A stretch of DNA of 64,000 nucleotides from Arenicellales bacterium. Its GTDB lineage: Bacteria > Pseudomonadota > Gammaproteobacteria > Arenicellales > Poriferihabitantaceae. Under the pieces are notes generated by a model. That model did no database searches, had not been told where the DNA came from, and saw nothing but the letters and a program-made list of their open reading frames with translations. A program made the translations under genes and the position numbers. Below, piece by piece: positions 2 through 12,902 of the stretch; position 1 is the first letter of the stretch, and each line of letters starts with the position of its first letter. The stretch spans positions 163,943 through 227,942 of the forward strand of contig OY734803.1 in the NCBI GenBank assembly GCA_963457535.1. Reading direction: 5' to 3'.

Positions 2-865
2 GGCGCGTGGGAGCGGCTGTGCCGGCGCACGGGGGCGGAGTTCGTGCTGTGGGAAGTGGACAAGCAAAGCGGCGAATTGTCATTGTCGCGTTTTCGCGAA
101 CTCTTGGATGCGCAGGTCAAACTCGTCTGCGTAACGCACAGTTCCAACATCGTCGGCAGCGTCAATCCGGTGGAGGAAGTCACCGCCCTCGCCCGCAAAC
201 ACGGCGCGCGCGTGGTTATTGACGGCGTCTCCTACGCGCCGCACCGCTGGCCCGAGATCGCCGCATTGCAGCCGGACGCGTATTGTTTCAGCGCCTACAA
301 AACCTACGCGACCCACCTCGGCGTGCTCTACACCGCGCCCGACTTCGCCGAGTCGCTGGATCCGCAATGCCATTACTTCAACCGCGACTCCCTGCAAAAA
401 CGCCTGGACGCGGCCGGCCCCGACCACGCCTCCATCGCCGCGCTCGCCGGCCTCGGCGAATATTTCGCCGCGAGTCACCGCCACCACTTCGGCGAATCGG
501 CCGCGCCGCCGCATGAAAAAGCGCAGGCGGTGTCCGCGCTGATGCACCGCCACGAAAACGAATTGTGCGCGCCGTTATTGGAAGCGCTGTGCTCCATGCC
601 GTTTCGCATTCTCGGCCGCAACGACATGCGCGGCCGCGAAGCCAACATCGCGCTCTTTTCCGAGAAACATTCCTCGGCGGAACTTTCCGCGGCTCTCGCG
701 CACGAAGATATCGCCGCCGGCCACGGCCACTTTTACGCGAAACGCCTGCTGGACAGCGTCGGCCTGCGCGACAGCGAAGACGGCGTGCTGCGCATCAGTT
801 TTTCCCACTACAACAGCGCGGAGGAAGTGGAGCGTGTCATTGTGGCGTTGCGCGGGGTGGGCTAG
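2..865 (+). CDS. Class V-fold PLP aminotransferase / cysteine desulfurase-like protein, C-terminal part (5' end lies outside the window)
   Basis: The frame is open from the window edge. It contains VCVTHSSNIVGS, a FSAYKTY PLP-lysine-like motif and the C-terminal RISFSHYNSAEEVERV typical of class V enzymes. G+C matches the host. Confidence 0.7.
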   Translation, partial: GAWERLCRRTGAEFVLWEVDKQSGELSLSRFRELLDAQVKLVCVTHSSNIVGSVNPVEEVTALARKHGARVVIDGVSYAPHRWPEIAALQPDAYCFSAYKTYATHLGVLYTAPDFAESLDPQCHYFNRDSLQKRLDAAGPDHASIAALAGLGEYFAASHRHHFGESAAPPHEKAQAVSALMHRHENELCAPLLEALCSMPFRILGRNDMRGREANIALFSEKHSSAELSAALAHEDIAAGHGHFYAKRLLDSVGLRDSEDGVLRISFSHYNSAEEVERVIVALRGVG

Positions 866-894
866 CGCGCGCCTGGCGCAGGTGCCACCCGGCA

Positions 895-2067
895 TCAAGT
901 CCGATAGTCGTCAATCAATGACTTGTCGGATTTGCGCCCCACACAATACTGGCTCACCGGGCACTTGTCACACTTTGGACTCTGATGATTAAAGCAGTAG
1001 TTCCTGCCAATCTCAATCAGCCCGTCATCGAAAGACTCTACCGTGATGTTTTTGCTTTGCTGTTTCCACAAAAGCGCATGTTGAAATCTTTGGATTTCAA
1101 CTTTTCGCGGTGCCCTTGTATGTGACTGCAAATGGTTGACGCAGATGTCTTTGTAGATTTCCTGCAAATCAGACGGCACATTCGCGCTGACCGGCATGCT
1201 GCGCATGTTGGTCACACGAATGTAATCCGTTCCTTTTTTGCCTTGCCCAGGCTGAATGACATTTTGTTTTTTGTACTCGCTCTTGTCCGCAAGTTCGCTC
1301 AAATAGCCGGTTCGCCACAATACGCGGCCGGCATTGGAGTCGAACGGCAGTTCGTAAGAAAACGGGCTCCAGTTGGTCTCATCTTGCCTTCTGGCCAGGC
1401 GAAAAGTTGAGACCATCCATTTGGCAAAAAGATGGCAAGCCTTGACGCCAATTGCCTTGCCGAGCCCGAACTTCTCGTTCCCCTTTAATCCACTGCACAT
1501 TTGTTCAGCGGAAGAATAGCCTTCCAAGTAGTCTGCAAGCGCGGTTGCCGGCTTGTATCCACTCCGGCCGAGCAAGTAAGGAAGCGCCAGCGGAACGCCC
1601 CACCGAAAAATGGCGTAATTCAGCGTCTGCTTGCTGTTGTCCATATAGAGGTTGTATTTTTCCGCGGATGACTGGTTGTCCTCAGCCCACCGTTCCGAGT
1701 GCCGGGACTTTACCTTGTCATGCATCTCCAAAATCTGTTCCACCGAGATGTTGATCTCCTTGAAGAAATCCAACGGCCGGTGGAAAATACGAACCTCCCG
1801 CTGGTAGAGGTCATTTACGACCCCCACCATCATTTCCCTGACACCGTCCAGGTCGGGGCCCTGGTCGAGCACCGCAGTGAGGACCAGCATGCGCAACAGC
1901 AGTTCCCGGCGCGTACATCCGCCGTCGCGCTCGTCCAGCTTAGACACATCAAGGACGTTGCCGTCGAAGAAATGTGCAAACGCGTCAAGCTGATGGGCCG
2001 GGGGCGGCGTCTTGTGGGAGACACCAACCTCCGCAATTGCAAGCGCAAGTTTTTCCAGATGCTCCAT
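895..2067 (-). CDS. HhH-GPD / endonuclease III-like DNA glycosylase superfamily protein with a C-terminal [4Fe-4S] cluster loop
   Basis: 390-aa ORF in a visibly lower-G+C segment. HhH-like GLGKAIGVKACHLFAKW is followed by FDSNAGRVLWRTGYL (Asp of the GPD region). The C-terminal CFNHQSPKCDKCPVSQYC gives a C-X7-C-X2-C-X5-C pattern. Its ATG lies 2 nt after the stop of the upstream methyltransferase. Confidence 0.6.
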   Translation of the reverse strand: MEHLEKLALAIAEVGVSHKTPPPAHQLDAFAHFFDGNVLDVSKLDERDGGCTRRELLLRMLVLTAVLDQGPDLDGVREMMVGVVNDLYQREVRIFHRPLDFFKEINISVEQILEMHDKVKSRHSERWAEDNQSSAEKYNLYMDNSKQTLNYAIFRWGVPLALPYLLGRSGYKPATALADYLEGYSSAEQMCSGLKGNEKFGLGKAIGVKACHLFAKWMVSTFRLARRQDETNWSPFSYELPFDSNAGRVLWRTGYLSELADKSEYKKQNVIQPGQGKKGTDYIRVTNMRSMPVSANVPSDLQEIYKDICVNHLQSHTRAPRKVEIQRFQHALLWKQQSKNITVESFDDGLIEIGRNYCFNHQSPKCDKCPVSQYCVGRKSDKSLIDDYRT

Positions 2068-2069
2068 AG

Positions 2070-2888
2070 TCAGTCAAACAGCGAAGCTGTTGCGCGGCCC
2101 CCGTTTGCGCCGGTGTCGTGGATTCGATAGTTCCCGGAAGTCAGCCGTTCCAGCGCAAAATCGCAGTATTCGCGCACGATTTCAAAACCGATGTAGCGGC
2201 GGTTTTTCATCTTGCTGACCACTGCAACCTGCCCGGATCCCAAAAACGGGTCCAGTACGACATCGCCCTCCCCGCTGGAATAGTCAAGGATTTTTTCAAT
2301 GATCTCCGCGGGAAGCTTGGTCGGCGTTTTTTTGTCGCCCCGCCAATACTCCCGCTTGATTTCCCAGACATCCTCTTTGTCGCGGTAATGCGCCGAGCCG
2401 CCGTTCGCGGCGCGCTCGTCTTTGCCAAACCGCGCATACGGGTGGAAGCACCGCTTGCGGTCATCCTTGCAGAGATACAGGCAGTGGTAGTGCGAAGTAA
2501 CATACTTCCGCCGGGTCGTTACGCCAAACTGGTATTTCCAGATCAGGTGGTTGACCGTGGTCAGTTGGCATTCATCGATCGCGATCAGCAGGTCTTTGAG
2601 ATGATTCCATCCGGAAAAAATATACATACTTCCGGAATCTTTCAAAACCCTGGTCGCCTGGCGCAGCCAGTCAAGGGTGAATGCCTGATAGGCACTCCCC
2701 TCGACTTCGCCGTAACCGGCGATCACCCGGCTGCTTTTTCGGTTGTAGTTTGCCCGGTTTGCTTTGAAGTCAATCGCAAACGGCGGATCAGTGATGACCA
2801 GGTCGACGCATTCCCCGGGCATTGCATGCATCAACTCGATGCAATCCCCGTGCGTTACGGCGTCCAACATTTCGGAAGTTTTTTTCAT
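2070..2888 (-). CDS. DNA methyltransferase, beta-class amino-MTase (N6-adenine or N4-cytosine)
   Basis: Motif IV (ITDPPFAI) precedes motif I (VVLDPFLGSGQVAV), the beta-class order. The start is set at MKKTSEML (ATG 2886-2888). The longer ORF reaching 2969 would overlap the 3' end of the upstream gene. G+C is lower than in the flanks. Confidence 0.85.
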   Translation of the reverse strand: MKKTSEMLDAVTHGDCIELMHAMPGECVDLVITDPPFAIDFKANRANYNRKSSRVIAGYGEVEGSAYQAFTLDWLRQATRVLKDSGSMYIFSGWNHLKDLLIAIDECQLTTVNHLIWKYQFGVTTRRKYVTSHYHCLYLCKDDRKRCFHPYARFGKDERAANGGSAHYRDKEDVWEIKREYWRGDKKTPTKLPAEIIEKILDYSSGEGDVVLDPFLGSGQVAVVSKMKNRRYIGFEIVREYCDFALERLTSGNYRIHDTGANGGRATASLFD

Positions 2889-2908
2889 TGAAGTGTGCCG
2901 CCGGCGCG

Positions 2909-4222
2909 TCAACAATCCAGCGTGTGCTCCACCTCCCAGCGGCTGATGGCGCGGGCGTAGTCGTCCCATTCGTTGCGTTTCAGTTTGCAGTAACTCTCCA
3001 CCAATTCCGCGCCGAGGGCTTCCTTGAGGGCGCGGCTTTTTTCGGTTTTGCGGATCGCGTCCAGCAGGTTCAGCGGGAGTTTTTTCAGGCCGCGGGTTTT
3101 TGCGCCGGGGGCGTACATGTTGGTGTCCAGGCGCTTGCCGGGGTCGCGCTTGTTGGCGATGCCGTCCAGGCCGGCGGCGAGGATGCCGGCCTGCAGCAAA
3201 TAGGGATTGGCCGCGCCGTCCATCAGGCGCAATTCAAAACGGCCGCGGTCGGGGACGCGGATCATGTGGGTGCGGTTGTTGCCGGAATAACTGACCGCGT
3301 TCGGCGACCAAGTCGCGCCGGAGAGCGTGCGCGGCGCGTTGATGCGTTTGTAACTGTTGACGGTCGGATTGAAGAACGAGGCGAGCGCTTCCACGTTGTG
3401 AATGACGCCGCCGAGAAACTCGTAGGCGAGTTTTGACAGGCCGAGTTCGTCCCCGCCGGTTTGGTCTTCAAAAAGATTTTTCGCGCCGCTTTGGTCCCAC
3501 AGCGAGACATGCGCGTGGCAGCCGTTGCCGGTCAGGTGCGAAAACGGTTTGGGCATGAAAGTCGCGCGCAGTCCGTGGTCCTCGGCGATTTGCCGCGTCA
3601 TGTATTTGAAAAACGCGTGGCGGTCGGCGGTGCGCAGGCAGTCGTCGTAGTCCCAGTTCATTTCAAACTGGCCGTTGGCGTCCTCGTGGTCGTTTTGGTA
3701 GGGGCCCCAGTTGAGTTGAATCATCGCGTCGCAAATTTGCGAGACCACATCAAAGCGGCGCATCAGCGCGGACTGGTCGTAGCACGGCTTTTCCTGCGTG
3801 TCGCGCGGGTCGGAAATCGCCGCGCCGTCCGGCTGAATTAAAAAGTATTCGCATTCCACGCCGCTCTTCATGCGGTAGCCGAGTTTTTCGGCGCGCGCAA
3901 TTTGCCGCCGCAGCGCGACCCGCGGCGAGGCCTCCACCGGCGCGCCGTTCATGTGCAAATCGCTCGCCAGCCATGCGACTTCGGGCTTCCACGGCAATTG
4001 CGTCAGACTTTCCGGATCGGGCAGCGCGAACATGTCGGGGTGCGCCGGCGTCATGTCCAGCCACGCGGCGAACCCGGCGAAACCCGCGCCCTCTTCCTGC
4101 ATCTGCGAAATCGCGCGCGCCGGCACCAGTTTGGCGCGCAGCACGCCGAACAAGTCGACGAAACTGATCAGAAAATAGCGGATGTTTTTTTGCTTTGCCT
4201 CTTGGGCGAGATCTTGCGCCAT
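2909..4222 (-). CDS. Glutamine synthetase family protein (GlnA-like gamma-glutamyl ligase)
   Basis: Motifs seen are FVDLFGVLRAKLVP, VECEYFL, NGQFEMNW, TFMPKP...GNGCHAHVSLW, NSYKRI and RFELRLMDGAANPYL. The start is set at MAQDLAQEAK (ATG 4220-4222). Confidence 0.85.
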   Translation of the reverse strand: MAQDLAQEAKQKNIRYFLISFVDLFGVLRAKLVPARAISQMQEEGAGFAGFAAWLDMTPAHPDMFALPDPESLTQLPWKPEVAWLASDLHMNGAPVEASPRVALRRQIARAEKLGYRMKSGVECEYFLIQPDGAAISDPRDTQEKPCYDQSALMRRFDVVSQICDAMIQLNWGPYQNDHEDANGQFEMNWDYDDCLRTADRHAFFKYMTRQIAEDHGLRATFMPKPFSHLTGNGCHAHVSLWDQSGAKNLFEDQTGGDELGLSKLAYEFLGGVIHNVEALASFFNPTVNSYKRINAPRTLSGATWSPNAVSYSGNNRTHMIRVPDRGRFELRLMDGAANPYLLQAGILAAGLDGIANKRDPGKRLDTNMYAPGAKTRGLKKLPLNLLDAIRKTEKSRALKEALGAELVESYCKLKRNEWDDYARAISRWEVEHTLDC

Positions 4223-5453: not shown

Positions 5454-6134
5454 TCACTTGACATCCGCTTCACCCCAAAGTTTTTCAAAAATGCCCTCAA
5501 ATACTCTTTTCTGAGAGGACAAATTGAAGACAAAGGAAAGTTTCCCACCGATGTTGTTCAGGCTTGTTCCAAAAATATACAAATGCTCCTTGTCGATCAA
5601 AAAGCGATCATGTATATCTTGTTTGCTCTTGGCCAAGGAGATGTGATGCCTTCCAATCACATGCGGTTTTTGACGGTCGATTTTTTTATAGCAATAGACG
5701 ACCTTCAGCGAGTTGATTTTCTGGGGATTCAGCAACATCCGCAACTTACTGTATGCGTTCTCGTCGAAGTAGGGGTCGCACAGTTTGACATCGCCAGACA
5801 CCCCGGCAAAGAGATTTTCCAGAGTTTCGTGAGTGCTTTCTTCGTGGGCCGGATCGATCACAAAAATGCTGTTTTCAAGGTATTCAATACCCTTCTGCAT
5901 AATCGTGAACTTTTGCTGGTCCATAAAGACCCACCCATCTTTTCTGGGAGTCTCTCGCAGGTCCCTCAGCGTATACGACAAGAAACCCTTGATTTCACTC
6001 GTTACCGGTGAAACTTTGCGCGCAAGCAGCCGTTCCCTGATTTCTGCAATGGAGAGCGGGCTGCGACTTTCCTTGAGTATGAGCAGCACTTGCCTTTTTG
6101 CATCCAGCTGGTGGATGTCGATGTTTTCACTCAT
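5454..6134 (-). CDS. Winged-helix DNA-binding domain fused to an HKD-less PLD-fold (MIT_C-like) domain; function unknown
   Basis: Low-G+C ORF and last gene of a four-gene cassette. The N-terminal wHTH-like segment is LLILKESRSPLSIAEIRERL...FTIMQKGIEYLE. The C-terminal segment is VKLCDPYFDE...SLKVVYCYKK...IHDRFLIDKEHLYIFGTSLNNIGGK. Confidence 0.55.
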   Translation of the reverse strand: MSENIDIHQLDAKRQVLLILKESRSPLSIAEIRERLLARKVSPVTSEIKGFLSYTLRDLRETPRKDGWVFMDQQKFTIMQKGIEYLENSIFVIDPAHEESTHETLENLFAGVSGDVKLCDPYFDENAYSKLRMLLNPQKINSLKVVYCYKKIDRQKPHVIGRHHISLAKSKQDIHDRFLIDKEHLYIFGTSLNNIGGKLSFVFNLSSQKRVFEGIFEKLWGEADVK

Positions 6135-6140
6135 GTTTCA

Positions 6141-6614
6141 TTACCGTGCTTTTGACTTAGTGGAACGTTTCTTTCGGCCGGTTTCCTGAGAAGGCAGCAT
6201 GGAAATCATCTGCCGTCCCTTAATTGAAATGCGAAACCCCCGCTTTTCTTTTGGCGGGCGTTCAATGTAGCCATATAAAGGAGAATTGCAGGTGTTACGA
6301 ATGGCCGCACACAACGCGGCCGGCTTCGTGTTTTTTACACCTTCTGGATTGTTGCGGATAAAGTCCACGATTTCGGCGGACGTAGCTGACGGCTTGGTCG
6401 TACCGGTAAGCTCATCCACAACAAGAGCAATGATTTGGTAATCGTTTGCAGGCTTTTTTTCAGCAAGGTAAGATTCCCAGGCCATTGATTCACTTCGGGC
6501 TTCTTGCGGGCGAGCAGACGCATGAGCCCCTTGTATTTGGGCCCCTTGCTCTATTAACAAAGTGCGGACTTCAACCAACAAATCACGCACTTCTTTGAGA
6601 AGAGGGTCACTCAT
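6141..6614 (-). CDS. Hypothetical small protein: N-terminal helix, wHTH-like core, basic tail (paralogue set member C)
   Basis: 157 aa, low G+C, with a 4-nt overlap to the upstream gene. It contains DYQIIALVVDELTG...GFRISIKGRQMISMLP and the tail GRKKRSTKSKAR. Confidence 0.6.
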   Translation of the reverse strand: MSDPLLKEVRDLLVEVRTLLIEQGAQIQGAHASARPQEARSESMAWESYLAEKKPANDYQIIALVVDELTGTTKPSATSAEIVDFIRNNPEGVKNTKPAALCAAIRNTCNSPLYGYIERPPKEKRGFRISIKGRQMISMLPSQETGRKKRSTKSKAR

Positions 6615-7171
6615 TGTTTTTTCTTCTTTTTTGCTTTCTTCTTTGTTGCTGGCGGTTGTTCTGGGAGTTGTTTAAGCATTTTTCGCCCCAAAGGCGTCAT
6701 GTTATACACTCCTTTTCCGACGGAGCGAATATACCGAGACTGTGCCACGGTGTTTGAGATCGCCTTAGTCAGGTTGGTGAGTTGGCCGATATGTTCGTAG
6801 CATTTGTTCTCAAGAAAACTCATGAGAGCATGCTTCTTCACACCAACACTTTCTTCTTGATCGTCTAGCTGCTGCCTTGAAAGATAATCAACAGCGAGAG
6901 CAATCACTTGATAGGTGCCTTGCGGTTGCTTTTGTTCGTACACATCAGACCATTGCTGAGTAGCCGGGCTTGATGCCTTATCAGCAGGTGCGTCGCCAAC
7001 AGGGGACGTGGGCGAAGTGCGCGTGACACCTTTCCCGCGCAATAAGTGTGCAAGGACGACGCCATAGGCAGAAGCAAAAAACTCACGGTCAATCTTGCTT
7101 GCCTTGACCAGATCTTCTGCTTCTTTAATCGTTTTCTGTATGTCTGAGTTGTTCATGTCTTGCTCATTCAC
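6611..7171 (-). CDS. Hypothetical small protein: wHTH-like core, poly-Lys tail (paralogue set member B)
   Basis: 186 aa, low G+C, with 4-nt overlaps on both sides. It contains TYQVIALAVDYLSRQ...GVYNMTPLGRKMLKQLP and the tail KKKAKKKKKQ. Confidence 0.6.
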   Translation of the reverse strand: MNEQDMNNSDIQKTIKEAEDLVKASKIDREFFASAYGVVLAHLLRGKGVTRTSPTSPVGDAPADKASSPATQQWSDVYEQKQPQGTYQVIALAVDYLSRQQLDDQEESVGVKKHALMSFLENKCYEHIGQLTNLTKAISNTVAQSRYIRSVGKGVYNMTPLGRKMLKQLPEQPPATKKKAKKKKKQ

Positions 7172-7563
7172 AGAGTTTCAACATACTCGGCCCCAGTTTT
7201 TGTGAGGTCCCAGTACTTCTTTTTTGATTCACTAGCATCTGATTCTGTGATCCAGCCATTCGCGGCGCACCTTGCGAGACAGGCTGCCACGTTCGTCGGG
7301 ATTTTCTCACGTGCATCACGAAAAATTTTCTTAACCGCTTTTACGCCAATGGGCTCCGAGGAGTTCTGCCGGCGCATGGCGAGAAAATACACCAAGCAAA
7401 TGCATTTGTCGTGCGCGTTGTTGGGAGATTTCTCCAAGAGGAATTCTCGGGGGCTCTGGTCGATTGCAACATGGGGCTGGTTCAGAGAAGGAGTTTTCCC
7501 CTCCAAATTCGCCACCCGTTTTGCAAGCGCATCAAACTCTGATTTAGTTGCATATTGTTGCAT
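7168..7563 (-). CDS. Hypothetical small protein: N-terminal coiled segment plus wHTH-like core (paralogue set member A)
   Basis: 131 aa, first gene of the cassette. An SD-like GAGAGGG lies 4 nt upstream of the ATG. It contains CICLVYFLAMRR...IGVKAVKKIFRDA...YWDLTKTGAEYVE. Confidence 0.6.
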   Translation of the reverse strand: MQQYATKSEFDALAKRVANLEGKTPSLNQPHVAIDQSPREFLLEKSPNNAHDKCICLVYFLAMRRQNSSEPIGVKAVKKIFRDAREKIPTNVAACLARCAANGWITESDASESKKKYWDLTKTGAEYVETL

Positions 7564-7997: not shown

Positions 7998-10900
7998 CTA
8001 CGGCAGCAACGCCGCGATTTTGTTCAGCACGGCGACGCGCGCGGGCGCGCCGGTGATGGAAAGCCCGGCGAAAAGTTCATCGCCGCGCAGGCCGAACAGG
8101 TAGCGCGCGATGAGGAAGCCGTCGGTTTCATCGGAGTCGCCGTCGCCGTCCACATCCAGGGCGTTGGTGGCGACGCCGTCCTGCAGCGAGGATTCGTAGT
8201 CGCGGAAATTGCCGGCGCTTTGTCCGCGAATCAAGGAGGGACCGCGCGAGCCGAGCAAATATCTTGCGGTGATGATGCCGTCGCGGACGGTTGCCGCGGC
8301 CGCGGCGTCTCCATCGGCGGTGTTCAGGTCCAAATCAAAAGTCGCGGTGCGAATGGAGAATTCCTGCTCGGCGGTGTCGCCGGCGTTGTCGGTGACGGTG
8401 TAGGTGATTTGCGCGTCGGTTCCGGCGGCGGGCGTGCCGGAGATTTCGCGGGTCTCTTCGTCAAAGGCGAGTCCGGACGGCAGGCCGCTCACTTCGTAGG
8501 TATAGGGAGTGGAGCCGTGCTCGGCCGCGGGCAAAACCACCGGCGATGCGAGTTGCGTGTCCGCGAGGAAAATCAAATCGGCCTGCGGCGTTGCGAACGC
8601 CAGCACTTCCTGCGGCGTTCCTTCGGCGGAAGTGGACCACGCGCCGGTGCCGGCGCTGTTGACCGCGGCGACTTGCACTGAATAGACGGTGCCGTTGGTG
8701 AGGCCGGGGATCGTGTAAAACGCGTCGGTTCCCCCGGTGGAAACACCATTGGCGTCCACCCATGAAGTAGAGCCGCTTCCCTCGGCCCAGCGAACGCGGT
8801 AGCCGCGCAACACGCCGCCGCCGAGGTCGGCATCGGCCGGCGCGGTCCAGCGCAACATCAATCGTTGGTCGGCCGGCGCAACCGCCAGACCGCTGAGCGC
8901 GGACGCAGGTCCGGCGGTTACCGTCAAATCTATGTCAGCGCGCGCAACGCCGGCGCCGGTTGCCATGCTGTCCTGCGCCGAATAAGTGATGCGAAACAGT
9001 CCGCCCTGCGTCGGCGTGCCGGCGAGGGTGCGCGAAGATTTTGTGAACGCCACCCCGGACGGCAGTGTGTCCCCGCTCAGCGTATAACTGAGCGGCGGAA
9101 AGCCTCCGCGCGCGGCCGGCAGGACAACGCTCTTGGCGGTGTTGTGTTGAAAGGTCAGCGCGGTCGGCGCGGCGGGCGTGAACGTCACCGGCGACACAGT
9201 CTCGGTGGTGAATCTACGCAGAGCCGCTTGGGGCGTCTTGGCGGAATCCACCACCTCATAATTCAGAGTCCATTGCAGGAGGGAGTTGCCGATGGTTTCA
9301 GGCTCAAAATCGCCGGTGAGGGCGCGCGTGTCCGCATCAAAAGAAAAGCCGGCCGGCAGCGGATCATTCCGCGTCATCCCGAATAAGTAGGCGAAGTAAG
9401 AATACGGCGGGAAACCTCCGCTCGCCGCCGGCAAAACGGTCGTTACCGGGGCGCCCGCGTAGGAAAAGATTTTCGCCGGGGCGGGGATGCGCAGCGGTTC
9501 CGGGGTGCGGATGAGCGTGATGCTGTAAGTCTTGGTCGCGCTTCCGTCGGCGGAAGTTACCGCGAAACGGACGGTGAGAGGAATGCCTTGCTGCAAATTC
9601 ACACTGACCTCCGCCCCGCTCGCGAGCGCGGCCGCGGCGGCCGTGCCGGCGGTGACGCGAATGTTCGCGCCGGAATTCTCGGCTGTCGGGCGCAGCGCGA
9701 CGCTCGCGGTCGTCTTCTCCACGGTGATTTCATAGGACAGCGTCTCTTTGTCAAAGGAAAACCCCGGCAGAGTCGTATCCGCGGTCAGACTCTGCAAATC
9801 GGCGTTGTCCTCGCCGACAAAATCAAAGGACGCGCCGGCCCAGACGCTGCCGGCGGTGGTCGCCGCGTCAAACGCGTCGCCGACGGCGATTTCCAGCGCG
9901 GCCACCTGCACATCGTATTTGCCGGGCGTCAAATTGGGAATGGAGACCATGGTGGTGGCGACGCGCGCCGATGCGGTGTAGGTGGAGACGCCGTCCGGTT
10001 TCCAGCGCGTGCGGTAACTCTGCACATTCGCGCCACCCGGCGCGCGCCAGCGCACCTGCAGCGCGCCGGCCGCGGAAGATGCCGAGAAATCGCGCGGCGG
10101 GTCGGGATGCGCCGCCGGCGCATCGAGGAAGCCGCTGCTCTCCACCCATGCGCTCTGCCCGGCCTCGCTGACCGAGGCGACCGCAAATTTCAAGGCCGCG
10201 GTCAAACGCGGCGAGTTCCAAGTCGCATCGGCGCTGCCGGTGGCGACGCCCGACGCGCCGCCGGTGCCGTCCCATGCCCCGGTATTCACGGAAGTCCAGC
10301 GCACCCGGTATTCGGTGATGGGCGCGCCGGCGACCGCGGCCGGCACATTCCAATCCAGGGAAAATGCGCTTTTTCCGCGGATTACGACAATATTCGCGGG
10401 CCGATTCGGCAGAATTTGGCGGGTCGCGACCACGCGGTAGGTCTTTTGCGCGGAGCCGTCGTCGGCGGTCACCACGATGGTGAAGATGATGCTCGCGCCG
10501 ACATCCAGCGCGGTCGGCGTACTTGCCGTGCCGCTGGTTCCGGCGGCCGGCGTCCCGCTGTCCACTTGCAGCGTGAAAGACGCGTGTTCGTCGTTCAGCG
10601 TCGCGGTGATGCCGACTTCGGTGCTGGCGTTCGGGGTAACCGAGGTGTAGTCGGTGGTGTCCGCGTCAAACGCCGGCGACAAATCGCCGGAGGACATTTC
10701 CAGCGCGGAGAGGGTCGCGTCAATATTCGGCAGCGCAGTCGCTTGCGCCGCGCTCCACGCGCCGGCGCCGACGCTGTTGACCGCGGCCGCCGCGACATCG
10801 TAGGCGGATTTTTCCAGACCGGAGATTGTATAACTGCGCGCCGATGCGGCGACGCTTTCGCCGCAATCGTTGTCGGTGGCGGTGTCGCCGTCATTGCATT

Positions 10901-12902
10901 CGGCGTCGTCGCCGCTCGCGTCCTGCCAGGGTCCGGGGCTGCCGGAGCCGTCGTCGCTTATCCGCCAGCGAACGCGGTAGTTGCTGATGGCGGCGAAGCC
11001 ATCGCTCGCCGGCACCTCCCAGTTGAAGGTGATCTCGCGCCGCCCGGCGGCCGCCGACGGATTCGCCGGCGCGCCCGGCGCGCCGACGCGCCTGACCACG
11101 ATGACATAGGTCTTCTGCGAACTTCCGTCATCGGCGGTAACCGCGATGCGAAAGGTCTTTTCGCCGCCGGCGTCAATGGAAAACTCGGAACTCGCGGTTC
11201 CGCTCACGCCGGCCGCCGGGGTTTCGCTGTCTTCCTGCAGAGTGAATTGCGCGTTGGCGTCCTTCAGCACCGCGGTGATTTCGGTGCCGGTCTCGCTGTT
11301 GGCGAGCAATGCGTCGTAAGAAAAAGTCGCGACGGCAAAGGACGGCGTCAGCGAGCCGGGGGAAATCGCCAGCGCCAGCAGGGTCGCATCGGTGGAGGCG
11401 AGCGGAGTCGCCTGCGCCGCGGTGTCGCCGCTCCACGCGCTGGCGCCGGCGCTGTTGACCGCGGCAACCGCGACATCGTAGGAGACCTTGTCCAGTCCGG
11501 TAATCTCATAGGAGGTCGCCGATGACGCGACTTCCACGCCGCACATCGCTTCGTTGCTCGCGTCGTTGTCGTTGCATTCGGCGTCATCGCCGCTCGCGTC
11601 CTGCCAGGGTCCCGGCGTTCCGGTGCCGCTGACGCGCCAGCGCACGCGGTAGGAGGCGACCGGGCGGTCGCTGTCTTCGGCCGGGGCGGTCCAGGAAAAA
11701 TTAATCGCGCGCACCGCGGCGGCCGCGGTCGGGCTGGTCGGGGTTGCCGGGGCGGTTACCGAGAGCGGGCTGCGGCTTTGCACCGCCGACCATGCGCCGG
11801 GCGCGAAAGTGTTCAGTCCGCGCACCCGCACATCGTAGGTCAGCGCGTTGTCCAGTCCGGTGATGTCGGCGCTGCCGCTGCGCGAGGATTCTATCAACCT
11901 GCCGCAGGCGGCCGAGGTTCCGGGGTCGTTTGCCGGGGCGGCGGCGCAGTCGGCGTCGTCGCCGGCGTCATTTTGCCAGGCGCCGGCGGTCTGCGCGCCG
12001 GCGCCGTCCGGGTCGGCGGTGCGCCAAGTGAGCCGCCAGACATCCAGCCGCGGACTGCCCAACTGCCAGCGATAGTTGACGCGCAGCGCGGTATCCAGGC
12101 CGTCAAGCGTTACCGTGGGCGCCACCGGCGCGGCGGTTACGGTTCGCGGCGAGGGGCGGGAAACACTTATGTTTATCAGCGGGGACATCGAGCCGCCGTC
12201 GGTCTCCGACTCGGCGGCGTTGAACTGTGTGAAACTCGGCCCCGCCGGCAGCGCATACACCCGGGAACTTCCGCCGCTGGCAATCCGCTCGCGGTTCGCT
12301 CCCGGGCCAAAAAGAAAATCCCCGCCGCCCAGCGCGGTCGCCGTCACCGCAATGCCGTCGATGACGGTTGACACATTGGGTACTGTGACGCTCGATGTCG
12401 GCGAATCGGCTTGGACGGTGCGCACCACTTCACTCCCGACATAGAGCCGCACCGTCACCGAAGTGAGCGTGCCGGTGCCGACCACGATGCCGGCCGAGGC
12501 AGACCAAGCGGTCGCGCCGGAGACTTCGGCGCCGACTTGCACATCGTATCGCCCGTCATCCAGATTGTCCGGTTGGCCGTTTGAATCGGTCGGCTGGATG
12601 GTGTAAGTGAGGGTGCCGGCGGCGACGGAAACGCCGTCGGCGCCGTCGTCGTTGAGCCAAGCGGTGGAGCCCGCGCCTTTCGCCCAGCGGACTTTGTATG
12701 CGCTGACCGTGCCCGAGGCCGGCGCGGCCCAGCGAACATTGATCAAACTCTTGCCGCCGCCGCTGCGGTGGTTTTGCTCCAGCACCACCGAAGTCGGCTG
12801 CGCCAGCGCCTGCGGCGCCTCAAACAGCGCGGCCAGGCAAAAAACCGCCGCGGCAAACAACGCCGCGCGCGAGCGGAAAAGGGTTTGGATTTTCGCGGGC
12901 AT
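7998..12902 (-). CDS. Giant secreted repeat protein P1 (FN3 / cadherin-like beta-sandwich / He_PIG Ig repeats, C-terminal dockerin-like module)
   Basis: 1634 aa with signal peptide MPAKIQTLFRSRAALFAAAVFCLAALFEAPQALA/QP. It has many FN3-like units (Y[KR]VRW...Y.V.V.A.N..G...WS). Cadherin-like units read DATLSALEMSSGDLSPAFDADTTDYT. He_PIG-like units read LPSGLAFDEETREISGTP. The C-terminus is DVDGDGDSDETDGFLIARYLFGLRGDELFAG. Confidence 0.9.
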   Translation of the reverse strand: MPAKIQTLFRSRAALFAAAVFCLAALFEAPQALAQPTSVVLEQNHRSGGGKSLINVRWAAPASGTVSAYKVRWAKGAGSTAWLNDDGADGVSVAAGTLTYTIQPTDSNGQPDNLDDGRYDVQVGAEVSGATAWSASAGIVVGTGTLTSVTVRLYVGSEVVRTVQADSPTSSVTVPNVSTVIDGIAVTATALGGGDFLFGPGANRERIASGGSSRVYALPAGPSFTQFNAAESETDGGSMSPLINISVSRPSPRTVTAAPVAPTVTLDGLDTALRVNYRWQLGSPRLDVWRLTWRTADPDGAGAQTAGAWQNDAGDDADCAAAPANDPGTSAACGRLIESSRSGSADITGLDNALTYDVRVRGLNTFAPGAWSAVQSRSPLSVTAPATPTSPTAAAAVRAINFSWTAPAEDSDRPVASYRVRWRVSGTGTPGPWQDASGDDAECNDNDASNEAMCGVEVASSATSYEITGLDKVSYDVAVAAVNSAGASAWSGDTAAQATPLASTDATLLALAISPGSLTPSFAVATFSYDALLANSETGTEITAVLKDANAQFTLQEDSETPAAGVSGTASSEFSIDAGGEKTFRIAVTADDGSSQKTYVIVVRRVGAPGAPANPSAAAGRREITFNWEVPASDGFAAISNYRVRWRISDDGSGSPGPWQDASGDDAECNDGDTATDNDCGESVAASARSYTISGLEKSAYDVAAAAVNSVGAGAWSAAQATALPNIDATLSALEMSSGDLSPAFDADTTDYTSVTPNASTEVGITATLNDEHASFTLQVDSGTPAAGTSGTASTPTALDVGASIIFTIVVTADDGSAQKTYRVVATRQILPNRPANIVVIRGKSAFSLDWNVPAAVAGAPITEYRVRWTSVNTGAWDGTGGASGVATGSADATWNSPRLTAALKFAVASVSEAGQSAWVESSGFLDAPAAHPDPPRDFSASSAAGALQVRWRAPGGANVQSYRTRWKPDGVSTYTASARVATTMVSIPNLTPGKYDVQVAALEIAVGDAFDAATTAGSVWAGASFDFVGEDNADLQSLTADTTLPGFSFDKETLSYEITVEKTTASVALRPTAENSGANIRVTAGTAAAAALASGAEVSVNLQQGIPLTVRFAVTSADGSATKTYSITLIRTPEPLRIPAPAKIFSYAGAPVTTVLPAASGGFPPYSYFAYLFGMTRNDPLPAGFSFDADTRALTGDFEPETIGNSLLQWTLNYEVVDSAKTPQAALRRFTTETVSPVTFTPAAPTALTFQHNTAKSVVLPAARGGFPPLSYTLSGDTLPSGVAFTKSSRTLAGTPTQGGLFRITYSAQDSMATGAGVARADIDLTVTAGPASALSGLAVAPADQRLMLRWTAPADADLGGGVLRGYRVRWAEGSGSTSWVDANGVSTGGTDAFYTIPGLTNGTVYSVQVAAVNSAGTGAWSTSAEGTPQEVLAFATPQADLIFLADTQLASPVVLPAAEHGSTPYTYEVSGLPSGLAFDEETREISGTPAAGTDAQITYTVTDNAGDTAEQEFSIRTATFDLDLNTADGDAAAAATVRDGIITARYLLGSRGPSLIRGQSAGNFRDYESSLQDGVATNALDVDGDGDSDETDGFLIARYLFGLRGDELFAGLSITGAPARVAVLNKIAALLP

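What the first reader, a model, noticed from the sequence alone, without database searches (positions are those of the whole stretch)
895..2888. Methyltransferase coupled to an HhH-GPD/[4Fe-4S] glycosylase-like protein: restriction glycosylase or methylation-linked repair?
This is a two-gene lower-G+C insert between host-like genes. A beta-class amino-methyltransferase (DPPF ... DPFLGSGQ) is followed 2 nt later by a 390-aa protein. That protein has an HhH motif, a GPD-region Asp and an endonuclease III-type iron-sulfur cluster loop (C-X7-C-X2-C-X5-C). No classical PD-(D/E)xK, HNH or PLD restriction nuclease lies next to the MTase. Two readings are possible. In the first, this is an R-M system whose restriction component is an HhH-GPD base-excision enzyme; the known restriction glycosylases of the R.PabI family use a different, half-pipe fold. 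In the second, it is an MTase-linked mismatch glycosylase analogous to Mig.MthI or Vsr. The long, unrecognised N-terminal ~200 aa may be a specificity module.
Basis: partly seen in the sequence, partly recalled or inferred. Interest (0 to 1): 0.65.

Follow-up and report, generated by a model that had tools for sequence, protein, structure and literature searches.

The report
Iron-sulfur repair-fold restriction enzyme with methylase
A mobile two-gene cassette pairs a DNA methylase with an unannotated iron-sulfur protein built like the repair enzymes endonuclease III and MutY; comparative evidence suggests that this protein restricts unmethylated AGCT sites by removing a base rather than cutting the backbone, which would be a second, unrelated kind of "restriction glycosylase".

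Summary
A beta-class amino-methyltransferase (M, 2070-2888, minus strand) is followed after 2 nt by a 390-aa ORF (G, 895-2067). Both lie in a lower-G+C insert between a type III glutamine synthetase gene and a class-V aminotransferase gene. A relative has the empty site.

G belongs to a compact family of about 390 aa with no Pfam model. Its confident predicted fold is all-helical, and the best PDB matches are endonuclease III and MutY. Profile searches align only the 4-Cys cluster loop. A Lys, an Asp and three of the four Cys are invariant, and the fourth is nearly so.

In 78 of 80 genomes from more than 20 phyla, including archaea, G sits next to an amino-methyltransferase of one of three subtypes. 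No other gene is conserved. No intact G lacks M, but G is often broken beside an intact M.

Relatives of the window's M also occur as orphans or pair with a classical PD-(D/E)xK nuclease (R'). Seven loci carry M, G and R' together.

DNA around G avoids AGCT (median observed/expected 0.13). DNA around orphan M homologues does not (0.98).

Best reading (about 0.65): a Type II-like restriction-modification system in which G is a base-excision/AP-lyase restriction enzyme for AGCT. No biochemistry exists, and no publication was found in the searched library.

The parts
2070..2888 (-). M: beta-class N6/N4 amino-DNA-methyltransferase, 272 aa
   Evidence: Pfam PF01555 at 1.2e-38 and PADLOC MTase_II at 3.8e-63. 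Homologues align from residue 1, which supports the start at 2888.
2778..2789 (-). M motif IV, DPPF (residues 34-37)
   Evidence: Read from the sequence.
2232..2252 (-). M motif I, DPFLGSG (AdoMet binding), downstream of motif IV as in the beta class
   Evidence: Read from the sequence.
895..2067 (-). G: 390-aa HhH/[4Fe-4S]-type glycosylase-like protein, candidate restriction glycosylase/AP lyase
   Evidence: AF2 model with pLDDT 91.8, all-helical. The top 11 Foldseek PDB hits are endonuclease III and MutY. The family is almost always adjacent to M.
1852..1875 (-). AVLDQGPD motif (residues 65-72), the most conserved N-terminal block; Q69 and G70 are invariant
   Evidence: Alignments A1 and A2. 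A correspondence to the endonuclease III 'SAQATD' helix is only a guess.
1417..1473 (-). HhH-like motif (residues 199-217, FGLGKAIGVKACHLFAKW); K209 (1441-1443) is the candidate Schiff-base lysine
   Evidence: G201, G207, K209 and K216 are invariant down to 22% identity. K209 lies at the N-terminus of helix 208-221 in the model. Its equivalence to Nth K120 is inferred.
1339..1341 (-). D243 (in PFDSNAGRV), the candidate catalytic Asp
   Evidence: P241 and D243 are invariant in A2. D243 is at the start of helix 244-252. Its equivalence to Nth D138 is inferred.
943..996 (-). Iron-sulfur cluster loop, C358-X7-C366-X2-C369-X5-C375
   Evidence: PF10576 in 22 of 26 members. hhalign against an Nth/MutY alignment gives probability 91.6% and E 8.4e-7. 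C358, C369 and C375 are invariant and C366 is nearly invariant.
866..894 (.). Right junction of the insert: 29 nt between the G stop and the stop of the convergent aminotransferase gene
   Evidence: The empty site in L166 has a 430-nt repeat-rich spacer instead.
2889..2908 (.). Left junction of the insert: 20 nt between the glutamine synthetase stop (2909-2911) and the M start
   Evidence: No promoter-like site was found here, so read-through from the glutamine synthetase gene is possible.
2909..4222 (-). Host flank: type III glutamate-ammonia ligase
   Evidence: Pfam Gln-synt_C at 6e-93; source names.
2..865 (+). Host flank: class-V aminotransferase, C-terminal part
   Evidence: Pfam Aminotran_5 at 3e-34.

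Best explanation
M and G form a mobile Type II-like restriction-modification cassette.

M methylates an exocyclic amino group (N6-adenine or N4-cytosine, not decided) in a short palindromic site, most likely AGCT.

G is the restriction component. It is a very divergent endonuclease III/MutY-type helix-hairpin-helix enzyme with a [4Fe-4S] cluster loop. The inferred mechanism has four steps:
1. G binds unmethylated AGCT and flips out a normal base.
2. It cleaves the N-glycosidic bond with help from D243.
3. It forms a Schiff base through K209 and nicks the strand by beta-elimination.
4. On a palindrome, both strands are hit, which breaks the DNA.

Methylation by M blocks recognition or excision.

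Shown here:
- the gene pair and its insertion;
- the near-obligatory G-M linkage across bacteria and archaea;
- horizontal mobility;
- retention of the Lys, Asp and 4-Cys set;
- the one-sided decay pattern (G is lost while M is kept);
- interchange with a classical nuclease;
- AGCT avoidance in host DNA.

Inferred, not shown:
- glycosylase and lyase chemistry;
- which base is removed;
- the identity of the site;
- the type of methylation.
For: **Linkage.** tblastn finds a PF01555-type M beside G in 78 of 80 species-representative genomes. The two exceptions are a contig end and a G remnant. Clustering of all neighbouring ORFs finds only G and M conserved. M is usually upstream on the same strand, with a gap of -35 to +37 nt.

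**Dependence is one-sided.**
- Every intact G with enough flank has an intact M.
- G is broken beside an intact M in L004, L011, L039 and L073.
- G is also broken in two strain variants of this very locus. L164 has a +1 frameshift and L165 a complex change that creates a stop; M is intact in both.
- M homologues at 61-75% identity exist without G: 32 orphans and 22 with R'.

**The slot is a restriction slot.** The same M lineage is followed by R', a protein of about 220 aa. R' has a D...DxK motif and a confident fold whose best PDB matches are EcoRV, BglI, DpnI, SfiI, MvaI, HincII and PvuII.

**Partner swapping.** Near-identical G proteins pair with DPPF-, SPPY- or DPPY-type M, with at least 8 switches on the G tree. 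This is expected if any methylase of the right site protects.

**Mobility.**
- The G tree disagrees with taxonomy.
- The cassette has lower G+C than its flanks.
- A relative has the empty site (L166).
- The same site holds DarTG plus M-G in another relative (L169).

**Site avoidance.**
- AGCT observed/expected in DNA flanking G is 0.28 pooled and 0.13 at the median. It is below 0.5 in 59 of 70 loci.
- All NAGCTN contexts are depleted (0.13-0.30), and 22 of 24 phylum groups are at or below 0.63.
- Orphan-M loci give 0.98.
- The window's native 56 kb has 6 AGCT sites against 90 expected. Eight of the window's 14 sites lie in the two low-G+C islands.

**Catalytic set.** Q69, G70, G201, G207, K209, K216, P241, D243, C358, C369 and C375 are invariant down to 22% identity.

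**Fold.** The AF2 model has pLDDT 91.8. The top 11 PDB matches are endonuclease III or MutY, with TM-scores of 0.30-0.61 normalised to the target (0.47-0.61 for the best six). The cluster loop aligns to Nth/MutY at 91.6% probability.

**Literature.** Only the PabI/HALFPIPE family is described as restriction glycosylases (PMC10273834, PMC7806768).
Against: - There is no biochemical or genetic test of any family member.
- Sequence profiles link G to endonuclease III and MutY only through the cluster loop. Pfam HhH-GPD does not match. Foldseek E-values are weak (0.2 at best, none at or below 0.001).
- The Lys-Asp spacing is 34 residues, against 18 in Nth.
- Seven loci carry M, G and the classical nuclease R' together, and this occurs with each of the three M subtypes. 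G is therefore not always the only candidate restriction gene and could be an accessory.
- AGCT is also depleted, though less, in relatives that lack the cassette at this site: L166 0.26, L168 0.28, L167 0.62. No whole-genome matched control could be run, so avoidance cannot be pinned on this cassette alone.
- The cassette genes themselves are less depleted than the flanks (0.54 against 0.28).
- The assignment of AGCT to M rests on avoidance statistics and on a literature lead (persistent AGCT m4C orphan methylases in archaea, PMC10609329). It is not a measured methylome.
Confidence: 0.66

Rival explanations
1. G is a methylase-linked repair glycosylase, a functional analogue of Vsr or Mig.MthI. 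It would correct a lesion or mismatch that arises at the site methylated by M and would not attack foreign DNA.
For: G has a repair-enzyme fold. The pattern of M-G, M-G-R' and M-R' arrangements resembles that of dcm-vsr with and without a restriction gene (my knowledge). One-sided dependence of G on M is also expected for a repair gene that is useful only with M.
Against: - The partners are amino-methyltransferases (PF01555). Deamination of m4C or m6A gives U or hypoxanthine, which general repair already handles (established chemistry, my knowledge).
- The invariant Lys suggests a bifunctional lyase. MutY and Mig, which excise normal bases at mismatches, lack that Lys (my knowledge).
- Site-restoring repair should preserve or enrich the site. 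Hosts of M-G show the strongest AGCT depletion, and orphan-M hosts show none.
- A benign M-plus-repair pair would have little reason to spread across more than 20 phyla as a two-gene unit.
Confidence: 0.12
2. R' is the real AGCT restriction enzyme, and G is an accessory of such systems, for example processing ends or AP sites or modulating restriction. Most M-G pairs would then be remnants that have lost R'.
For: M-G-R' or G-R'-M arrangements recur with DPPF-, SPPY- and DPPY-type M (L088, five Phycisphaerae loci, L070). R' has a bona fide restriction-nuclease fold.
Against: - 74 of 80 G loci have no R' within 6 kb, yet G stays under strong purifying selection there (mean column identity 59%).
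- R' loci mostly lack G: 21 of the 22 M-R' loci.
- AGCT avoidance is stronger around M-G (0.28) than around M-R' (0.68).
- None of the window's own clade has R'.
Confidence: 0.1
3. G is a non-catalytic DNA-binding or sensing protein on a glycosylase scaffold, like the inactive endonuclease III domain of END nucleases. It might be a regulator of M.
For: Inactive endonuclease III domains serve as base sensors in defence proteins (PMC12191111). The HhH region of G is too divergent for profile detection.
Against: Candidate catalytic residues Lys and Asp are invariant across a family that has diverged to 22% identity, unlike the inactive domain, which lacks them. G is fused to no effector domain and is 390 aa long. 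Repeated disruption of G beside an intact M suggests a costly activity.
Confidence: 0.05

Closest known systems
R.PabI / R.HpyAXII / R.CcoLI restriction DNA glycosylases (HALFPIPE superfamily)
   Same: Each is the partner of an amino-methyltransferase in a mobile two-gene unit with a 4-bp palindromic target (GTAC for PabI). Restriction works by excision of an unmethylated base followed by AP-lyase nicking (PMC4357717, PMC10273834, PMC7806768). This is the proposed working mode of G.
   Different: The folds are unrelated. The known family has the half-pipe fold; the G model is all-helical (DSSP shows only short strand segments), its best PDB matches are endonuclease III and MutY, and no restriction glycosylase chain is among its Foldseek matches. 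G has a 4-Cys iron-sulfur loop. Its inferred site is AGCT. The activity of G is untested.
Endonuclease III (Nth) and MutY, the Fe-S branch of the HhH-GPD superfamily
   Same: G shares the Cys-rich cluster loop (hhalign 91.6%), gives these proteins as best structural matches, has an HhH-like G-x-G-x-K motif followed by a conserved Asp helix, and has a Lys as in bifunctional Nth.
   Different: G is 390 aa against about 211-225 for Nth and the MutY core. Its loop is C-X7-C rather than C-X6-C. There is no PF00730 hit. The Lys-Asp spacing is 34 rather than 18, and extra segments lie between the Asp helix and the cluster loop. G is sporadic, horizontally transferred and bound to a methylase gene rather than a housekeeping gene.
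Vsr and Mig.MthI (methylase-linked mismatch repair)
   Same: A small DNA-repair-type gene sits tightly beside a methyltransferase gene, sometimes with and sometimes without a restriction gene.
   Different: Those enzymes accompany C5-cytosine methylases and correct T:G mismatches from 5mC deamination. Here the partners are N6/N4 amino-methylases, and the hosts avoid the site.
DEMETER / ROS1
   Same: These are HhH-GPD, Fe-S, bifunctional glycosylase/lyases that read methylation state. ROS1 is a weak hit of the cluster-loop region.
   Different: They remove the methylated base. G would have to spare it, since it is encoded with the methylase.
END nucleases (PLD nuclease fused to an inactive endonuclease III domain)
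   Same: An endonuclease III-type domain is recruited to anti-phage defence (PMC12191111).
   Different: In END nucleases the domain lacks catalytic residues, is fused to a nuclease, has no methylase partner and targets hypermodified DNA.

Membership tests
Type II restriction-modification system (functional class) | The restriction gene is adjacent to a DNA methyltransferase gene of matching specificity | tested here: met
   78 of 80 loci have M adjacent, and only G and M are conserved. Matching specificity is inferred only.
Type II restriction-modification system (functional class) | The restriction gene is not tolerated without the methylase, while the methylase is tolerated alone | tested here: met
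   No intact G lacks an intact M. At least 6 cases have a broken G beside an intact M. M homologues occur as orphans. This pattern is also compatible with a methylase-dependent repair gene.
Type II restriction-modification system (functional class) | Horizontal mobility as a unit | tested here: met
   The G tree is incongruent with taxonomy. An empty site is seen in L166. The cassette has lower G+C than its flanks.
Type II restriction-modification system (functional class) | Avoidance of the recognition site in host DNA | tested here: met
   AGCT median observed/expected is 0.13 around G and 0.98 around orphan M. Caveat: relatives without the cassette at this site are also partly depleted.
Type II restriction-modification system (functional class) | Cleavage of unmethylated but not methylated target DNA; restriction of phage or plasmids | not testable with these tools
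   This needs expression and in vitro assays.
HhH-GPD superfamily, Fe-S branch (Nth/MutY) | Cys-X6-7-Cys-X2-Cys-X5-Cys cluster loop at the C-terminus | tested here: met
   G has C-X7-C-X2-C-X5-C. PF10576 matches 22 of 26 members. hhalign gives E 8.4e-7.
HhH-GPD superfamily, Fe-S branch (Nth/MutY) | Helix-hairpin-helix followed by a Gly/Pro-rich loop and a catalytic Asp | tested here: inconclusive
   The invariant G201/G207/K209 motif and D243 lie at suitable helix ends in the model. No profile alignment covers this region, and the spacing is longer than canonical.
HhH-GPD superfamily, Fe-S branch (Nth/MutY) | Match to the family model (Pfam PF00730) | tested here: not met
   No hit even at E up to 10 in any of 26 members.
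HhH-GPD superfamily, Fe-S branch (Nth/MutY) | Two-domain all-alpha fold | tested here: inconclusive
   The top 11 Foldseek hits are endonuclease III or MutY, with probability up to 0.95. TM-scores normalised to the target range from 0.30 to 0.61 and exceed 0.5 for three of them. E-values are 0.2 or worse.
PabI / HALFPIPE restriction glycosylases | Half-pipe fold | tested here: not met
   The model is all-helical, its best PDB matches are endonuclease III and MutY, and no restriction glycosylase chain appears among the Foldseek or sequence matches.
Vsr/Mig-type methylase-linked mismatch repair | Partner is a C5-cytosine methyltransferase whose product deaminates to a T:G mismatch | tested here: not met
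   All partners are PF01555 amino-methyltransferases with DPPF, SPPY or DPPY motif IV.

The most novel reading that the evidence does not exclude
G founds a second, structurally unrelated class of base-excision restriction enzymes. It would be the first restriction enzyme built on the endonuclease III/MutY helix-hairpin-helix scaffold and the first with an iron-sulfur cluster. It would be specific for unmethylated AGCT and spread by horizontal transfer through more than 20 bacterial and archaeal phyla. It would be interchangeable in evolution with an EcoRV/PvuII-like nuclease that serves the same methylases.
Probability: 0.6. Interest if true: 0.85.

Novelty: new variant of a known kind. Interest (0 to 1): 0.77.

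Why it matters
Restriction by base excision is known from a single protein family (PabI), which has its own fold. A second, independent origin from the main DNA-repair glycosylase superfamily would have several consequences:

- It would show that repair enzymes can be turned into sequence-specific, methylation-sensitive weapons more than once.
- It would add a new fold and the first metal-cluster cofactor to Type II restriction enzymes.
- It would give a natural example of a HhH glycosylase that reads a 4-bp sequence in undamaged DNA, which bears on how DEMETER-type enzymes arose and on engineering site-specific base-excision tools.
- It would assign a function to several hundred 'hypothetical proteins' in uncultured bacteria and archaea, many of them sponge symbionts and Chloroflexota.

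Tried and rejected
- **Profile comparison with E. coli Nth.** Only the cluster loop aligned, so the HhH and Asp mapping could not be confirmed by sequence.
- **tblastn with a MutY-like protein (P0248).** It extended some alignments so that MutY 'PGVGRYTAG' fell on G 'PGQGKKG' (residues 273-279). I rejected this as the HhH. That stretch is not conserved in the wider family, and the model shows short strand and turn segments there with no helix pair.
- **PDB sequence searches** with G and with its profile found only cluster-loop hits.
- **Viral contigs** hold no relative of G.
- **RNA evidence.** The four runs returned by the RNA query (X4-X7) are of unrecorded type; they cover the region evenly like DNA, so they gave nothing on expression. 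No contig joined the two flanks.
- **Insert ends.** No flanking direct or inverted repeats mark them. No convincing promoter or terminator was found.
- **Published methylomes.** The search for a methylome of Anaerolinea thermophila, which carries the pair, found none.
- **Whole-genome controls.** I could not run whole-genome AGCT controls or search for R' elsewhere in host genomes.
- **PADLOC** has no model for G.
- **Specificity of M.** I tried to read it from a classical partner with a named Pfam family. The partner R' has no Pfam or PDB sequence match.
Full report
**1. The observation**

On the minus strand, a 272-aa ORF (M, 2888..2070) ends with TGA at 2072-2070. Two bases later a 390-aa ORF (G, 2067..895) begins.

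M is a beta-class amino-methyltransferase:
- Pfam N6_N4_Mtase matches at 1.2e-38 and PADLOC MTase_II at 3.8e-63.
- Motif IV (DPPF) comes before motif I (DPFLGSG).

G has no family assignment in Pfam, NCBIfam or PADLOC, apart from sub-threshold hits to the endonuclease III/MutY iron-sulfur loop. The loop reads C358-X7-C366-X2-C369-X5-C375.

The two genes have G+C of 0.47-0.57, against 0.63-0.68 in the flanks. The flanks are a type III glutamine synthetase gene and a class-V aminotransferase gene. Only 20 nt and 29 nt separate the cassette from these genes.

The genome comes from a sponge-associated bacterium.

**2. It is an insertion at a variable site**

| Relative (glutamine synthetase identity) | Arrangement |
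|---|---|
| L166 (82%) | Synthetase and aminotransferase genes adjacent, 430-nt repeat-rich spacer, no cassette |
| L171 (84%) | Synthetase - M - G, with the same 2-nt spacing as in the window |
| L169 (88%) | Synthetase - DarT - macrodomain (DarG-like) - M - G, with an ATGA overlap |
| L167, L168 | Other genes at this position |

The site downstream of the synthetase gene is therefore a hotspot for defence-type cargo.

**3. What G is**

- A search of 5.8 billion proteins returns 666 relatives. The 120 listed are 298-432 aa, mostly about 390. No listed hit has a Pfam domain, and those that carry a name are called 'hypothetical'.
- An exhaustive profile search of 1.84 billion cluster representatives finds only 137 hits, many of them fragments. 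These include a more distant sister group of about 415 aa.
- AlphaFold2 with the family alignment gives a confident model (pLDDT 91.8, pTM 0.91) that is almost entirely helical.
- The top 11 Foldseek matches in the PDB are all endonuclease III or MutY. The probability reaches 0.95 and the TM-score normalised to the target ranges from 0.30 to 0.61. The E-values are weak, 0.2 at best.
- Profile-profile comparison with an Nth/MutY alignment is significant only for the cluster loop (91.6%, E 8.4e-7).

Across an alignment that reaches 22% identity, the invariant residues are Q69, G70, G75, Y138, G201, G207, K209, K216, P241, D243, G254, C358, C369 and C375. C366 is nearly invariant.

G201-x5-G207-x-K209 lies in the hairpin and at the start of helix 208-221. 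D243 opens helix 244-252. This is the arrangement of the HhH lysine (K120) and catalytic aspartate (D138) of bifunctional endonuclease III. The spacing is longer here, and there are extra segments before the cluster loop. I treat this mapping as inferred, not shown.

The model has no beta-sheet core that could hold a PD-(D/E)xK, HNH or GIY-YIG site.

**4. Context across genomes**

- Eighty loci were retrieved from one genome per species. They cover Chloroflexota, Planctomycetota, Pseudomonadota, Acidobacteriota, Nitrospinota and many other bacterial phyla. They also cover archaea: Thermoplasmatota, Aenigmatarchaeota, Helarchaeota, Altiarchaeales and Micrarchaeota.
- 78 of the 80 have a PF01555-type methylase next to G. 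One exception is cut by a contig end. The other is a G remnant (residues 160-390) with no M.
- Clustering of all ORFs within 4 kb shows that G and M are the only conserved genes.
- M is usually upstream and co-directional, overlapping G or separated from it by a few bases.
- The methylases fall into three subtypes by motif IV: DPPF (the window's type), SPPY and DPPY. These share as little as 21-25% identity with each other, while the G proteins stay at least 43% identical.
- On a G tree the subtype labels are clustered, but they switch at least 8 times, sometimes between near-identical G proteins. The tree ignores taxonomy, for example placing Thermoplasmata beside Aminicenantes.
- No viral contig carries G.

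**5. One-sided dependence**

- Every intact G with enough flanking sequence has an intact-looking M.
- G carries frameshifts, in-frame stops or rearrangements beside an intact M in L004, L011, L039 and L073.
- Two contigs from one sponge metagenome are 99.2% and 99.8% identical to the window. In these, G is split by independent mutations while M is intact at 272 aa. One mutation is a +1 G at about window 1838. The other is a complex change at about 1575-1577 that creates a stop.
- This is the decay pattern typical of costly restriction genes.

**6. The same methylases serve a classical nuclease**

A scan centred on M collected 83 loci whose M is 61-75% identical to the window's (80 from the metagenome scan and three from contig look-ups):
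- 32 are orphans in one lineage with conserved neighbours.
- 22 are followed by a protein of 214-228 aa, called R' here.
- 6 are followed by G. One of these, L088, also has R' after G.

R' has an invariant D76...D84-x-K86 motif and a confident model with pLDDT 93. Its best PDB matches are almost all Type II restriction endonucleases of the EcoRV, PvuII, HincII, BglI, SfiI, MvaI and DpnI kind. G therefore occupies the position that a bona fide restriction nuclease occupies beside sister methylases.

Seven loci carry all three genes: five Phycisphaerae loci and L088 as M-G-R', and L070 as G-R'-M. This occurs with each methylase subtype. It keeps alive the rival view that G is an accessory. However, 74 of 80 G loci have no R' nearby.

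**7. The target**

I computed observed/expected ratios (maximal-order Markov model) for the 16 palindromic tetranucleotides in the DNA flanking G, with the cassette excluded.

| Measure for AGCT | Value |
|---|---|
| Pooled observed/expected around G | 0.28 |
| Median per locus | 0.13 |
| Loci below 0.5 | 59 of 70 |
| All 16 NAGCTN contexts | 0.13-0.30 |
| Phylum groups at or below 0.63 | 22 of 24 |
| Orphan-M loci | 0.98 |
| R' loci | 0.68 |
| Cassette genes themselves | 0.54 |

- Only CTAG, which is avoided in many prokaryotes (my knowledge), is as depleted as AGCT.
- In the window, 8 of the 14 AGCT sites lie in the two low-G+C islands. The native 56 kb holds 6 against 90 expected.
- A survey of archaeal systems reports persistent orphan m4C methylases for AGCT in Nitrosopumilales and Methanomicrobiales (PMC10609329). 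That agrees with an AGCT specificity for this methylase lineage, but I did not show that those enzymes are the homologues found here.
- Caveat: three relatives without the cassette at this site are also AGCT-poor (0.26, 0.28 and 0.62). AGCT-directed restriction pressure therefore seems general in this community.

**8. Interpretation**

Taken together, the following favour a restriction-modification system in which G is the restriction enzyme and works by base excision plus beta-elimination at unmethylated AGCT:
- obligatory linkage to interchangeable amino-methylases;
- mobility;
- one-sided decay;
- replacement by a classical nuclease in sister loci;
- retention of a Lys/Asp/4-Cys set;
- strong site avoidance.

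A Vsr- or Mig-like repair role fits poorly. The partners are not C5-methylases, and site-restoring repair would not deplete the site.

A purely accessory role beside R' is possible but would leave most loci as remnants that are nonetheless well conserved.

An inactive sensor role, as in END nucleases (PMC12191111), is unlikely given the invariant candidate catalytic residues.

**9. Comparison with the literature**

Full-text searches found restriction glycosylases only of the PabI/HALFPIPE family. The 2023 review states that all other restriction enzyme families are phosphodiesterases.

G would work like R.PabI but is not a member of that family, because the fold does not match. It is a very divergent offshoot of the Nth/MutY branch and fails the Pfam HhH-GPD model.

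Earlier notes of this scan, read after my own AGCT analysis, describe the same or sister families in other genomes and reach the same reading. They are not independent evidence.

**10. Verdict**

This is a new structural variant of a known kind of system (base-excision restriction). It is untested at the bench, and the experiments needed are clear and inexpensive.

Noticed in passing
window 5454-7563 (minus strand): A second low-G+C island (0.43-0.50) holds four co-directional small genes. The last gene (5454-6134) hits PADLOC candidate PDC-S05 at 1e-8 and the VPA1262 N-terminal domain. The island holds 4 of the window's 14 AGCT sites. It is absent, together with the L-PSP and DUF1028 genes, from strain contig L164, where the 1634-aa surface protein gene abuts the glutamine synthetase gene.
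   Followed up: partly
L081:4839-5507, L085:4320-4982 and 20 further loci; L054:7125-7877, L070:1648-2301, L088:2831-3496: R' is an unannotated family of about 220 aa with an invariant D...DxK motif and an EcoRV/PvuII-like predicted fold. It lies directly downstream of AGCT-candidate methylases and is probably a classical AGCT restriction endonuclease. It has no Pfam model and no PDB sequence match.
   Followed up: partly
window 8000-64000: The native DNA of this sponge symbiont is strongly depleted in several 4-bp palindromes besides AGCT: GTAC 10 sites against 84 expected, ACGT 13 against 91, TCGA 34 against 209, CTAG 4 against 23. This suggests pressure from many restriction systems.
   Followed up: no
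L164 (window about 1838) and L165 (window about 1575-1577): Two strain variants from the same sponge metagenome carry independently disrupted G genes beside intact M genes.
   Followed up: yes
L169:2972-4230: In a relative, a DarT/macrodomain (DarTG-like) toxin-antitoxin pair sits between the glutamine synthetase gene and the M-G cassette. The site behaves as a defence-gene hotspot.
   Followed up: no
32 metagenome loci among L084-L163 (for example L120, L127, L142): Orphan M homologues (about 62-64% identical to the window's M) lie in a single low-G+C lineage with conserved TatA-like, SDR and large helicase neighbours. These loci show no AGCT avoidance. They may be the persistent archaeal AGCT m4C methylases of the literature, but this was not verified.
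   Followed up: no
P0177-P0204 (protein ids): A sister subfamily of G, about 415 aa and 22-27% identical, keeps the same invariant Lys, Asp and Cys residues. Its genomic context was not examined here.
   Followed up: no
L166:7324-7752: The empty-site spacer between the glutamine synthetase and aminotransferase genes contains two copies of an element of about 100 nt (GCCAGTCTTAG.GAGATTCCCGAGG...CTCGAGAATGACG) and two shorter repeats, resembling REP-like intergenic elements.
   Followed up: no
window 7998-12902 (minus strand): A 1634-aa secreted protein is rich in fibronectin-III and cadherin-like repeats and has a dockerin-like C-terminus.
   Followed up: no
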